From a virus, in the UHGV virus genome UHGV-0307316: a stretch of DNA of 64,000 bases; one strand, given 5' to 3'. A model generated the notes under the pieces. It searched no databases and had not been told where the DNA came from. It saw nothing but the letters and a program-made list of their open reading frames with translations. Position numbers and translations under genes: made by a program. The number at the start of each line of letters is the position of its first letter. Position 1 is the first letter of the stretch. Of this stretch, positions 20,408 through 20,709 are shown piece by piece.

Positions 20408-20489
20408 CGGGGCGTATCTCAGCGGTCTTCTAAACCGCCGTTAACCGAGTAAGTGGAGTATGCGGGTTCGAGTCCTGCCGCCTCGACCA
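20408..20489 (+). tRNA. aberrant tRNA-like RNA (anticodon arm UCU), no recognisable D-arm
   Basis: Good acceptor and T-arm and perfect 5-bp anticodon stem (loop CTTCTAA), but only 14 nt before the anticodon stem and a 23-nt variable region. Confidence 0.4.
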
Positions 20490-20638
20490 ATTTAGTTAGC
20501 AGATTACTTAGACGACCTAAGCGGGTCTTCCTGTAAGGAGGTGGTCTGTATCTCATGTTTTCCAGAACATGTAAATAATCTGAGAAGGGGCTTTACAGTG
20601 TTGAGATAACAGGGTAAGCTTCGAATTATAGTTTTAAT

Positions 20639-20709
20639 AGGGGTGAGCTATGGCAGCAATAGAGTCTCCAAAATTCTTGATTAGAGTTCGAATCTCTACA
20701 CCCCTGCCA
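20639..20709 (+). ncRNA. tRNA-like element lacking an anticodon stem (68 nt)
   Basis: Perfect acceptor AGGGGTG/CACCCCT, D-arm CTAT/ATAG, T-arm TAGAG-TTCGAAT-CTCTA, encoded CCA; 17 nt in anticodon position do not pair. Confidence 0.35.

What the first reader, a model, noticed from the sequence alone, without database searches (positions are those of the whole stretch)
20408..20709. Two aberrant tRNA-like RNAs that keep acceptor and T-arms but have lost other arms
20408-20489 has a good acceptor stem, T-arm and perfect UCU anticodon arm, but only 14 nt where acceptor-linker plus D-arm should be and a 23-nt variable region. 20639-20709 (68 nt) has perfect acceptor, D-arm and T-arm and an encoded CCA, but the 17 nt in the anticodon position cannot pair. 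Both retain the parts that form the tRNA elbow and 3' end, so they may be tRNA mimics or decaying pseudogenes. The second ends 15 nt before the HNH endonuclease gene.
Basis: seen in the sequence. Interest (0 to 1): 0.5.

Follow-up and report, generated by a model that had tools for sequence, protein, structure and literature searches.

The report
Rewired arginine tRNA in phages
The first odd tRNA-like gene belongs to a large, overlooked family of phage arginine tRNAs in which a long-range helix replaces the D-arm hairpin, and the second is a tryptophan tRNA with a shrunken D-arm; both look functional, which would challenge the published statement that all known bacterial tRNAs are cloverleaves.

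Summary
The window is a Felix O1-like coliphage, 99.3% identical to wV8, and both elements lie in its 26-gene tRNA array.

**20408-20489 is not a pseudogene.**
- It belongs to a conserved family found in 263 GenBank phage records and in more than 80 IMG/VR contigs from unrelated phage families.
- Covariation shows a 7-bp acceptor stem, a normal anticodon arm and a normal T-arm. It also shows a new helix: CUC at 20418-20420 pairs with GAG at 20447-20449.
- This helix stands in for the D-stem. An invariant D-loop-like strand, UAAYUGGAGUAU, follows it.
- Anticodons in the family are UCU, CCU, UCG or ACG, which are all arginine, with rare Ile exceptions.
- The arginine identity elements are kept (an A20-like base, C35, U36, A/G73).
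- It fills exactly the slot where sister phages carry a canonical tRNA-Arg(UCU).
- AGA is the phage's commonest Arg codon.
- ARAGORN finds 0 of 86 family members.

**20639-20709 is tRNA-Trp(CCA).** The defect is a 3-nt deletion in the D-arm.

**Best reading:** two working non-canonical tRNAs. I found no published description of the first fold.

**Seen in passing:** an unannotated tmRNA-like RNA with a tag reading frame lies just upstream, at about 20213-20400.

The parts
20175..20203 (+). Sigma-70-type promoter-like site (TTGACA, 17 nt, TATAGT). It would drive the leader RNA plus the tRNA-Arg precursor.
   Evidence: Matches 11 of 12 consensus positions. Conserved in Sf19, SUSP1, Felix O1 and skuden. 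A similar promoter sits directly upstream of the homologue in PHB05.
20213..20400 (+). tmRNA-like leader RNA with a tag reading frame and two pseudoknots, but no tRNA-like domain of its own. It is co-transcribed with the tRNA; this is a side finding.
   Evidence: Weak Rfam tmRNA match (16 bits). 112 copies in very different phages. Pseudoknot pairs covary.
20253..20285 (+). tmRNA-tag-like reading frame: GCA AAC GAC AAU GUU UUU CUG GCA GUA GCU UGA, encoding ANDNVFLAVA followed by a stop.
   Evidence: The frame is kept across the family, with synonymous changes and swaps between stop codons.
20408..20489 (+). Rewired tRNA-Arg(UCU), called TLE in this report. It is a three-way-junction tRNA with no D-arm hairpin.
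   Evidence: Rfam tRNA 31.7 bits. My own family model gives 98.9 bits, against 36 bits or less for canonical tRNAs.
20408..20414 (+). Acceptor stem, 5' strand (CGGGGCG). It pairs with 20479-20485.
   Evidence: All 7 pairs covary and 99.5% of cells are paired.
20418..20420 (+). D' helix, 5' strand (CUC). It pairs with GAG at 20447-20449.
   Evidence: Compensatory variants CAC/GUG, CAG/CUG, CAU/AUG, CGC/GCG, CGG/CCG, CGU/ACG and CUU/AAG. Pair 12-41 is UA 38, AU 11, GC 5, and pair 13-40 is CG 44, UA 6, GC 4, with no unpaired cells. Both pairs are among the top 14 by mutual information.
20422..20438 (+). Anticodon arm GCGGU-CUUCUAA-ACCGC. The anticodon UCU is at 20429-20431.
   Evidence: All 5 pairs covary. 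The loop is CUUCUAA in 51 of 56 members, CUUCUAC in 4 and UUCCUAA in 1.
20439..20446 (+). Conserved bulge CGUUAACC on the 3' side, between the anticodon stem and the D' helix.
   Evidence: The consensus is C-R-U-Y-A-A-N across the family. It is shorter in the ACG-type relatives.
20447..20449 (+). D' helix, 3' strand (GAG).
   Evidence: Same evidence as for 20418-20420.
20450..20461 (+). Connector UAAGUGGAGUAU, which looks like a D-loop. The proposed equivalents are G18-G19 at 20455-20456 and A20 at 20457.
   Evidence: Invariant except for two positions. The family consensus AAUUGGA is identical to the D-loop of the canonical phage tRNA-Arg(UCU) of Sf19. The assignment of equivalent positions is inference.
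20462..20478 (+). T-arm GCGGG-UUCGAGU-CCUGC.
   Evidence: The stem covaries. The loop positions T54, Psi55, C56 and A58 are invariant.
20479..20489 (+). Acceptor 3' strand CGCCUCG, discriminator A (20486) and encoded CCA (20487-20489).
   Evidence: 42 of 56 family members encode NCCA. In 38 of those 42 the discriminator is A or G.
20639..20709 (+). tRNA-Trp(CCA) with a truncated D-arm (68 nt plus CCA).
   Evidence: ARAGORN calls tRNA-Trp. Rfam tRNA gives 33.2 bits with a 3-nt deletion in the D-stem. It is 98.6% identical to the Sf19 and SUSP1 copies, while the adjacent HNH gene is 80% identical.
20646..20660 (+). Shortened D region AGCUAUGGCAGCAAU. The likely stem has 3 bp (G20647-C20657, C20648-G20656, U20649-A20655) with a 5-nt loop that contains GG.
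   Evidence: Comparison with a canonical Vibrio-phage tRNA-Trp shows 3 nt missing from the 5' half. The only substitution in other genera, at 20651, falls in the proposed loop. The stem itself is inferred.
20661..20677 (+). Anticodon arm AGAGU-CUCCAAA-AUUCU. The anticodon CCA is at 20668-20670.
   Evidence: ARAGORN and the Rfam alignment agree on this register.
20682..20698 (+). T-arm UAGAG-UUCGAAU-CUCUA of the tRNA-Trp.
20724..21128 (+). HNH endonuclease gene, 14 nt downstream of the tRNA-Trp. Together they form a cassette.
   Evidence: PHROG phrog_2255, HNH endonuclease, E = 1.5e-45. Annotated as HNH endonuclease in wV8 RefSeq. Pfam gave no hit. All Ounavirinae records that hold this tRNA-Trp and were inspected also hold this gene.

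Best explanation
Both elements are working, structurally non-canonical elongator tRNAs of a Felix O1-like phage.

Element 1 (20408-20489) is a tRNA-Arg(UCU) with a rewired core.
- There is no D-arm hairpin. Instead, the strand just after the acceptor stem (U8-A9-U10-C-U-C) pairs with GAG in what looks like a long variable region.
- This D' helix of 3-4 bp stacks in series on the anticodon stem, with a conserved CGUUAAY bulge between them.
- The next 12 nt, UAAYUGGAGUAU, run single-stranded to the T-stem.
- I infer that this strand supplies the D-loop functions: A14 for U8, G18-G19 for the T-loop elbow, A20 for ArgRS, and U48.

Inferred life cycle of element 1:
- it is transcribed from the promoter at 20175;
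- RNase P cuts it at 20408;
- it carries an encoded CCA end;
- host ArgRS charges it through the A20-like base, C35, U36 and A73;
- it reads AGA, and perhaps AGG, which is the phage's commonest and the host's rarest arginine codon.

Element 2 (20639-20709) is a tRNA-Trp(CCA). It has lost 3 nt from the 5' half of its D-arm but keeps a small D hairpin with GG, a perfect anticodon arm, and the TrpRS identity elements A1-U72 and G73. It is the phage's only tRNA-Trp.

Shown here: the conservation, the secondary structure including the new helix, the restriction of anticodons, the genomic placement, and the allelic exchange with a canonical tRNA-Arg(UCU).

Inferred, not shown: aminoacylation, use by the ribosome, and the three-dimensional equivalence to a D-loop.
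For: **Family and structure.**
- There are 56 sequences (54 distinct) in the core alignment. 94.9% of cells are paired, against 64.4% in shuffles, and 18 of 21 pairs change on both sides.
- Sliding the partner strand by one or more columns drops pairing to 33-46%.
- The new helix is carried by double changes with no unpaired cells. An unbiased mutual-information scan also recovers it.

**tRNA context.**
- The element sits at tRNA spacing inside tRNA arrays in almost every locus.
- 42 of 56 members encode NCCA.

**Arginine specificity.**
- Two scans that left the anticodon free found only UCU, CCU or UCG loops.
- Relatives with the same architecture carry ACG.
- The discriminator is A or G in 38 of 42 members. 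C35, U36 and an A directly after the GG are invariant. These match the bacterial Arg identity set of A20, C35, U/G36 and A/G73 (PMC9976931).

**Functional equivalence.**
- Felixounavirus skuden, Sf19 and SUSP1 carry a canonical tRNA-Arg(UCU) in exactly this slot, with the same flanks. The Sf19 copy scores 63 bits on Rfam.
- Of 47 family loci examined, only one also has a canonical Arg(UCU).
- phi92 has no annotated tRNA-Arg at all.

**Need.**
- AGA makes up 40% of the Arg codons in the window's ORFs.
- The Felix O1 genome paper noted that a tRNA for AGA was expected but not found (PMC3185647). Felix O1 carries an identical copy of this element.

**Feasibility.** E. coli HisRS, EF-Tu and the ribosome accept an engineered tRNA that lacks the D-arm (PMC11551756).

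**tRNA-Trp.**
- ARAGORN and Rfam both call it.
- It keeps A1-U72, G73 and the CCA anticodon.
- It is 98.6% identical across three genera, while the flanking HNH gene is 80% and the spacer 80-93% identical.
- It is the only tRNA-Trp in the array.
Against: - There are no expression, aminoacylation or translation data.
- The D-loop equivalence cannot be tested by covariation, because that strand is invariant.
- 14 of 56 family members lack an encoded CCA. Several of these have terminal helices of 9-12 bp, although the canonical tRNAs beside them do end in CCA.
- One of those members sits next to a canonical tRNA-Arg(UCU) (L029). At least a sub-branch may therefore not be an ordinary decoding tRNA.
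- Engineered D-armless tRNA in E. coli was limited by PNPase degradation.
- The tRNA-Trp variant occurs in only 23 Ounavirinae records and always travels with an HNH gene. It has too little variation for a covariation test, and hitch-hiking with a homing cassette could mimic conservation.
Confidence: 0.7

Rival explanations
1. Element 1 is a tRNA-shaped RNA that is not used for decoding. It could be a decoy or inhibitor for an enzyme that recognises the tRNA-Arg anticodon arm, such as an anticodon nuclease of a host defence system or a colicin-D-like toxin. It could also be a regulatory tRNA mimic.
For: - The fold is unlike any tRNA known to be used by bacterial ribosomes (PMC11551756 abstract).
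- A quarter of the members lack CCA. Some of these have 12-bp terminal helices, unlike their neighbouring tRNAs.
- One member sits beside a canonical tRNA-Arg(UCU) (L029).
- The anticodon loop is nearly invariant.
Against: - A decoy would have no reason to keep the ArgRS elements outside the anticodon, namely the A/G73 bias, the A after GG, and an encoded CCA in 42 of 56 members.
- Clean allelic exchange with a canonical tRNA-Arg(UCU) in the same slot, together with absence of any other UCU tRNA in large arrays, argues for equal function.
- The same fold carries four different Arg anticodons. That fits an isoacceptor family better than a single-target decoy.
Confidence: 0.15
2. One or both elements are decaying tRNA pseudogenes.
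For: - Both have low Rfam tRNA scores, 31.7 and 33.2 bits.
- Several GenBank records label them 'tRNA-OTHER' or pseudo.
- The tRNA-Trp shows a simple 3-nt deletion relative to a canonical relative.
Against: - Element 1 is 83-100% conserved across unrelated phage families, with compensatory changes in every helix. A decaying gene would not show this.
- The tRNA-Trp is better conserved than its flanks and as well conserved as the canonical tRNAs beside it. All its stems other than the D-stem are perfect.
Confidence: 0.05
3. Element 1 is the alanine-accepting tRNA-like domain of a split tmRNA, and the upstream leader (20213-20400) is its mRNA-like part.
For: - The leader carries a tmRNA-like tag frame and pseudoknots.
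- The window copy has G3:U70 and A73, which are the AlaRS marks.
- Genome announcements reported an ARAGORN 'tmRNA' in Felix O1 and Moogle.
Against: - G3:U70 is present in only 7 of 56 family members.
- Element 1 has a full anticodon arm, which tmRNA lacks.
- Outside Ounavirinae, element 1 occurs without the leader and the leader occurs without element 1.
- In Sf19, SUSP1 and skuden the leader is followed by an ordinary tRNA-Arg.
- ARAGORN finds no tmRNA here. Its single call elsewhere borrows the 3' half of a normal tRNA.
Confidence: 0.03
4. The tRNA-Trp with the deformed D-arm is a relaxed decoder that also reads UGA. It would resemble the classical Hirsh D-arm mutant of E. coli tRNA-Trp and would give the phage low-level stop-codon read-through.
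For: - The lesion is in the D-arm, and the CCA anticodon and TrpRS identity elements are untouched.
- That D-arm changes in tRNA-Trp can allow UGA reading is established knowledge that I recall (Hirsh 1971); I did not test it here.
- The alternative allele in Felix O1 and skuden also has an unusual tRNA-Trp-like gene in this slot, with a C31.A39 mismatch.
Against: There is no evidence of in-frame UGA codons or read-through products in this phage, and I did not look for them. The variant is confined to a minority of Ounavirinae.
Confidence: 0.08

Closest known systems
Canonical phage and E. coli tRNA-Arg(UCU), for example the allele in Shigella phage Sf19, phage SUSP1 and Escherichia phage skuden
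   Same: - Same genomic slot and flanks.
- Same anticodon loop, CUUCUAA.
- Nearly the same anticodon stem and T-arm.
- The family consensus has the same AAUUGGA motif (the window copy reads AAGUGGA).
- A/G73 plus CCA.
   Different: In the canonical gene, AAUUGGA is the loop of a D-arm hairpin on the 5' side of the anticodon arm. Here there is no hairpin. One strand of the stem lies 5' of the anticodon arm, while the other strand and the loop-like motif lie 3' of it. The anticodon arm is therefore enclosed by the helix.
D-armless mitochondrial tRNA-Ser(AGY/AGN) of animals
   Same: It has no D-arm hairpin and a three-way-junction shape, yet it still works as an adaptor. Some carry a UCU anticodon (PMC7609411).
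   Different: - Those are organellar tRNAs, AT-rich and eroded, and they need co-evolved mitochondrial factors.
- Their D-replacement loop is a short 5' connector.
- The phage family has canonical acceptor, anticodon and T-arms, a covarying extra helix, a conserved bulge and a 12-nt 3' connector.
- The phage family must use the ordinary bacterial translation machinery.
[quoted passage not shown] 2024, PMC11551756)
   Same: It shows that E. coli synthetase, EF-Tu and ribosome can use a tRNA without a D-arm.
   Different: It is man-made, it is histidine-specific, and it has no replacement helix or D-loop-like strand. Its use required a PNPase mutation in the host.
allo-tRNAs and other irregular tRNAs (Mukai et al. 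2017, PMC5389517)
   Same: They are non-canonical tRNAs found in bacteria and phages by metagenome mining, and standard tools miss them. Some carry AGA/AGG anticodons.
   Different: allo-tRNAs keep a D-arm and have 8/4 or 9/3 acceptor/T-stem lengths with a long paired variable arm. This family is 7/5, has no D hairpin and has no paired variable arm.
tRNA-like domain of tmRNA
   Same: It has an acceptor stem plus T-arm, no proper D-stem, and a GG-containing strand that contacts the T-loop. In the window it lies next to a tmRNA-like leader.
   Different: tmRNA has no anticodon arm, needs G3:U70, and encloses the mRNA-like domain between its two ends. None of these holds for the family.

Membership tests
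Canonical cloverleaf tRNA (Rfam RF00005, ARAGORN model): element 1 | 7-bp acceptor stem, 5-bp anticodon stem with a 7-nt loop and U33, 5-bp T-stem with a T-Psi-C loop, and an NCCA end | tested here: met
   Seen directly in the sequence. All three stems covary. RF00005 gives 31.7 bits against a threshold of 29.
Canonical cloverleaf tRNA (Rfam RF00005, ARAGORN model): element 1 | A D-arm hairpin (3-4 bp stem plus loop) between position 9 and position 26 | tested here: not met
   Only 7 nt lie between the acceptor and anticodon stems. The Rfam alignment deletes the D-arm. ARAGORN detects 0 of 86 family members. The stem partner lies 3' of the anticodon arm.
Bacterial tRNA-Arg (identity set A20, C35, U/G36, A/G73; PMC9976931) | C35 and U36 or G36 in the anticodon | tested here: met
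   The anticodon is UCU in 55 of 56 core members and CCU in 1. Relatives carry ACG and UCG.
Bacterial tRNA-Arg (identity set A20, C35, U/G36, A/G73; PMC9976931) | Discriminator A73 or G73 | tested here: met
   The window has A at 20486. The discriminator is A or G in 38 of the 42 members that encode CCA.
Bacterial tRNA-Arg (identity set A20, C35, U/G36, A/G73; PMC9976931) | A20 in the D-loop, directly after G18-G19 | tested here: inconclusive
   An invariant GGA is present (20455-20457). It lies in a single strand 3' of the anticodon arm, so whether it occupies the A20 pocket is inference.
Bacterial tRNA-Arg (identity set A20, C35, U/G36, A/G73; PMC9976931) | Charged with arginine by ArgRS and used at AGA/AGG codons | not testable with these tools
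   This needs aminoacylation and translation assays.
tmRNA tRNA-like domain | G3:U70 alanine identity pair, conserved across members | tested here: not met
   The pair is G:U in only 7 of 56 members, although the window copy has it.
tmRNA tRNA-like domain | No anticodon arm, and 5' and 3' halves that flank the mRNA-like domain | tested here: not met
   A covarying anticodon arm is present. The element is self-contained, and outside Ounavirinae it occurs without the leader.
allo-tRNA (8/4 or 9/3) | Acceptor stem of 8-9 bp with a T-stem of 4-3 bp, a D-arm and a long paired variable arm | tested here: not met
   The configuration is 7/5, with no D hairpin. A variable-arm hairpin model was rejected by the covariation.
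tRNA pseudogene | Relaxed constraint, seen as broken stems and no compensatory change or conservation beyond close relatives | tested here: not met
   94.9% of cells are paired, 18 of 21 pairs show double changes, and 263 GenBank phage records from several families carry the element.
Bacterial tRNA-Trp: element 2 | Anticodon CCA, G73, and a first pair of A1-U72 | tested here: met
   CCA at 20668-20670, G at 20706, and A20639 paired with U20705. The identity set is from PMC9976931.
Bacterial tRNA-Trp: element 2 | A standard D-arm with a 4-bp stem and a loop of 7-11 nt | tested here: not met
   The D region has 15 nt where a canonical tRNA has about 18-19. The Rfam alignment deletes 3 nt of the stem's 5' strand. 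ARAGORN pairs only 2 of 4 stem positions.

The most novel reading that the evidence does not exclude
Phages of enterobacteria and many environmental phages routinely use a non-cloverleaf class of elongator tRNA on ordinary bacterial ribosomes. The rewired core is mostly confined to arginine isoacceptors. On this reading it is an adaptation that lets the phage's own tRNA-Arg escape a nuclease or modifying enzyme that recognises the normal D-arm and core of tRNA-Arg, whether a host defence or the phage's own shut-off weapon, while staying chargeable by host ArgRS. The sub-branch without CCA and with 12-bp terminal helices would have gone a step further and become pure decoys.
Probability: 0.2. 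Interest if true: 0.92.

Novelty: new variant of a known kind. Interest (0 to 1): 0.78.

Why it matters
[quoted passage not shown] If this family is charged and used, model coliphages such as Felix O1, wV8 and phi92 already carry a natural exception. The exception would have a new topology, with the D-stem closed around the anticodon arm, rather than a simple loss of an arm.
- **A directly testable question.** How much of the tRNA core do RNase P, ArgRS, EF-Tu and the ribosome really need? The family provides a ready-made natural chassis for orthogonal tRNAs.
- **A practical annotation gap.** ARAGORN misses every member, and most GenBank records leave the gene unannotated or call it 'tRNA-OTHER'. 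Phage tRNA inventories and codon-usage arguments are therefore systematically missing an arginine tRNA. The Felix O1 genome paper's 'expected but absent' tRNA for AGA is an example.
- **A possible mobile cassette.** The tRNA-Trp variant shows that a D-arm deletion can persist under selection next to a homing endonuclease.

Tried and rejected
1. **Alanine-accepting tmRNA-like domain.** G3:U70, A73 and the tmRNA-like leader upstream suggested this. I rejected it because G3:U70 is in only 7 of 56 members and the two modules occur independently.
2. **Variable-arm hairpin with a GUAA tetraloop inside the 23-nt region.** I rejected it once divergent members showed that the GAG pairs with the 5' linker.
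3. **Thermodynamic folding.** It was uninformative. The z-score for element 1 is 0.04, and the minimum-free-energy fold of a relative is wrong.
4. **A general link between the family and HNH endonucleases as a means of spread.** Only a handful of loci have an HNH gene nearby. One of my query proteins in that call was in the wrong frame, so its hits were ignored.
5. **ARAGORN tmRNA search on all 189 loci.** It made one call, and that call is an artefact built on the 3' half of a normal tRNA.
6. **Rfam at gathering threshold on 13 loci carrying the leader.** No tmRNA was found.
7. **Pfam on the HNH ORF.** No hit. PHROGs confirmed the HNH assignment.
8. **Scan for more tRNA-Trp genes with the same truncated D-arm.** IMG/VR held only wV8 and SUSP1, so no covariation test is possible.
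9. **The CTACGAA pattern scan.** Its hits were mostly chance matches. I used only the ones that the covariance model confirmed.
10. **Literature searches.** I searched for the fold, for the tag peptides and for phage tmRNA-like RNAs. I found no description. The library does not include most subscription journals.
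Full report
**Setting.** The window is a Felix O1-like myovirus. The region 20160-21140 is 99.3% identical to Escherichia phage wV8. ARAGORN finds 26 tRNA genes between 18833 and 24396, including tRNA-Trp(CCA) at 20639-20709, and finds nothing at 20408. Rfam's tRNA model gives most of the array 40-62 bits. It gives 20408-20486 only 31.7 bits and 20639-20706 only 33.2 bits, just above the threshold of 29. Two long-variable-arm tRNAs, Tyr and Ser(UGA), also score only 31.6-33.2 bits.

**Element 2 (20639-20709).** ARAGORN and the Rfam alignment use a different register. 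That register gives a perfect anticodon arm, AGAGU-CUCCAAA-AUUCU, with anticodon CCA, and it moves the defect to the D-arm. A canonical tRNA-Trp from a Vibrio phage aligns along the whole length except for 3 nt missing from the 5' half of the D-arm.

It falls in the loop of a 3-bp stem with a 5-nt loop, which I propose instead.

The gene keeps the bacterial TrpRS marks A1-U72, G73 and CCA (for the identity set). It is the only tRNA-Trp in the array. It is 98.6% identical between this phage and two other genera, while the adjacent HNH gene is 80% and the spacer 80-93% identical.

It occurs in only 23 Ounavirinae records, and a relaxed scan of IMG/VR found no wider family. The records I inspected also carry the HNH gene downstream. 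I read it as a probably functional tRNA-Trp with a miniaturised D-arm that travels with a homing-endonuclease cassette. The evidence for this is conservation only.

**Element 1 (20408-20489): distribution.** A distant DNA search showed that this 82-nt element is not confined to Felix O1-like phages. It occurs at 83-90% identity in several unrelated groups, in or near their tRNA genes:
- T5-like Klebsiella phages;
- phi92-like phages;
- jumbo phages of about 350 kb;
- other groups.

In all, 263 GenBank phage records hold it. It is mostly unannotated, or is labelled 'tRNA-OTHER', 'tRNA-Undet' or plain 'tRNA'. Pattern scans of IMG/VR added more than 80 contigs. A scan of one genome from each of 185,579 bacterial and archaeal species found only five hits. 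Four are real members and all four lie on metagenome-assembled contigs. The element is therefore essentially phage-specific.

**Element 1: structure.** I aligned 56 sequences, of which 54 are distinct. The acceptor, anticodon and T stems covary heavily. Divergent members revealed a fourth helix. The bases after U8-A9-U10 pair with the bases just before an invariant UAAYUGGAGUAU strand. The observed combinations are CUC/GAG (this window), CAC/GUG, CAG(C)/(G)CUG, CAUC/GAUG, CGC/GCG, CGGU/GCCG, CGUC/GACG and CUUA/UAAG.

Counts on the alignment:
- 94.9% of cells are paired, against 64.4% in shuffles.
- 18 of 21 pairs change on both sides.
- Sliding the partner strand by one or more columns drops pairing to 33-46%.
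- The two central pairs of the new helix are UA 38, AU 11, GC 5 and CG 44, UA 6, GC 4, with no unpaired cells.

A mutual-information scan that knew nothing of the model put exactly the proposed pairs at the top, including these two.

The molecule is therefore a three-way junction made of the acceptor stem, the T-arm and a long arm. In the long arm, a 3-4-bp helix that I call D' is in series with the anticodon stem. A conserved CGUUAAY bulge separates them on the 3' side. The 12-nt strand that follows D' contains AAUUGGA in the family consensus. That is the same sequence as the D-loop of the canonical phage tRNA-Arg(UCU). I infer that this strand supplies A14, G18-G19, A20 and U48. Because it is invariant, covariation cannot test this.

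**Element 1: function.** Several lines of evidence point to a real arginine tRNA.
- In nearly every locus the element sits at tRNA spacing within a tRNA array.
- 42 of 56 members encode NCCA, and the discriminator is A or G in 38 of those 42.
- Two scans that left the anticodon free returned only UCU, CCU or UCG loops.
- A covariance model built from the alignment separates the family (85-102 bits) from canonical tRNAs (36 bits or less). It also picks up an intermediate group (45-59 bits) with the same architecture. That group carries ACG, UCG and CCU anticodons, which are all arginine, and two isoleucine cases.
- Within Felixounavirus, phage skuden carries a canonical tRNA-Arg(UCU) in exactly this slot with the same flanks. 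Sf19 and SUSP1 do the same.
- Large arrays that hold the element have tRNA-Arg(ACG) but no other UCU tRNA. phi92 has no annotated tRNA-Arg at all.
- AGA is the commonest arginine codon in the window's ORFs, at 40%. The Felix O1 genome paper remarked that a tRNA for AGA would have been expected. Felix O1 carries an identical copy of this element.
- E. coli's synthetase, EF-Tu and ribosome can use an engineered tRNA without a D-arm.

**Element 1: cautions.** Nothing here shows expression or charging. A quarter of the members lack CCA. Several of these have terminal helices extended to 9-12 bp, although the neighbouring canonical tRNAs do end in CCA. One such member lies beside a canonical tRNA-Arg(UCU). 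A non-decoding role for at least that sub-branch cannot be excluded, whether as a decoy or as a regulator. Why the fold is almost restricted to arginine is unexplained.

**Comparison with what is known.** The family works like a tRNA-Arg but fails the cloverleaf test, because it has no D-arm hairpin.
- It differs from the D-armless mitochondrial tRNA-Ser. It has an extra covarying helix, a bulge and a 3' connector, and it depends on ordinary bacterial factors.
- It differs from allo-tRNAs, which keep a D-arm and have 8/4 or 9/3 stem lengths.
- It differs from the tmRNA tRNA-like domain, because it has an anticodon arm and G3:U70 is not conserved.
- ARAGORN in standard mode detects none of 86 members.

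Seven full-text searches found no description of this fold. A 2024 paper states that all known bacterial tRNAs are cloverleaves. I therefore rate it a new variant of a known kind. The caveat is that the searchable library omits most subscription journals.

**Side finding.** Between the promoter-like site at 20175-20203 and the tRNA lies an RNA of about 190 nt that resembles the mRNA-like part of tmRNA.
- An A-rich run precedes the reading frame GCA AAC GAC AAU GUU UUU CUG GCA GUA GCU UGA, which encodes ANDNVFLAVA followed by a stop. The stop codon lies in a hairpin loop. Two pseudoknots follow.
- There are 112 copies in lambdoid prophages, Schitoviridae, Ackermannviridae, Ounavirinae and phages of about 110 kb.
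- It is in 338 of 5,426 complete E. coli genomes, mostly on plasmids of about 110 kb.
- The tags vary (ANDEQFLAVA, ANDDVVLMAA, ANEEMYLAVA and others), with synonymous changes and swaps between stop codons. This indicates selection on the peptide.
- No tRNA-like domain is attached. Rfam and ARAGORN do not call it a tmRNA. It is unannotated, and no paper lists the tags.
- It is independent of element 1 outside Ounavirinae. Its function is unknown.

Noticed in passing
window 20213-20400 (tag frame 20253-20285): An unannotated tmRNA-like RNA that has no tRNA-like domain.
- It has the resume context AAAAUAAAU|GCA and the tag frame ANDNVFLAVA followed by a stop.
- Two pseudoknots are supported by covariation (CCAA/UUGG, CCGA/UCGG and CCAG/CUGG; CGUACU/GGUAUG and CGCACU/GGUGUG).
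- There are 112 copies in at least five unrelated phage groups.
- It is in 338 of 5,426 complete E. coli genomes, mostly on plasmids of about 110 kb.
- Tag variants show synonymous changes.
- The wV8 RefSeq record places a minus-strand hypothetical CDS (gp050) over it.
   Followed up: partly
family members L013, L023, L029, L031, L060 (12-bp terminal helix), L014, L020: A sub-branch of the rewired tRNA-Arg family lacks an encoded CCA and extends the acceptor helix to 9-12 bp. The canonical tRNAs in the same arrays do end in CCA. In L029 the element sits beside a canonical tRNA-Arg(UCU).
   Followed up: partly
L051 2689-2766; L217, L227, L239, L232 and others; L221 2425-2504; L191 5506-5585: The same rewired architecture occurs with other anticodons in environmental phage contigs. 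Many carry Arg(ACG), some carry Arg(UCG) or Arg(CCU), and two are isoleucine cases (GAU, UAU). These relatives have a shorter bulge and a D' helix of 2-4 bp.
   Followed up: partly
L002 about 1862-1983 (Shigella phage Sf19) and L003 about 1862-1982 (SUSP1): Just after their canonical tRNA-Arg(UCU), these phages have a tRNA-like element of about 120 nt that is absent from the window. It has an acceptor stem GGUCAAG/CUUGGCU, a GCCA end, a normal T-arm and a hairpin GAAGG-UUAGCUA-CCUUC. About 66 nt lie where the D-arm should be.
   Followed up: no
L004 about 2449-2531 (Felix O1) and L090 about 1067-1149 (skuden): Phages without the tRNA-Trp plus HNH cassette have a different odd tRNA-Trp-like gene in the same slot. 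It has acceptor ATGGGAC/GTCCCAT plus GCCA and the anticodon loop UUCCAAC. The loop is closed by a C.A mismatch, so the anticodon stem has effectively 4 bp. Nine nt lie between the acceptor and the D-stem. ARAGORN does not call it.
   Followed up: no
window 20490-20638: The spacer between the two tRNAs is 93% conserved in Sf19 and about 80% in SUSP1, where it carries an insertion. It contains an imperfect 9-bp stem, AGACGACCU...AGGUGGUCU, around a loop that carries that insertion in SUSP1. It also contains a palindrome, CAUGUUUUCCAGAACAUG, and a weak promoter-like site at 20601-20629 just upstream of the tRNA-Trp.
   Followed up: no
L176 3200-3574: ARAGORN's only 'tmRNA' call among 189 loci pairs the end of the tmRNA-like leader with the 3' half of an ordinary tRNA and gives a nonsense tag. 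Published reports of an ARAGORN 'ssrA' in Felix O1 and Moogle may have a similar origin.
   Followed up: partly
GenBank records MG065664.1, MG065689.1 (labelled Campylobacter phage) and OK283618.1 (labelled Listeria phage): These records carry near-identical Felix O1-like or phi92-like tRNA regions. This suggests mislabelled or contaminated entries.
   Followed up: no
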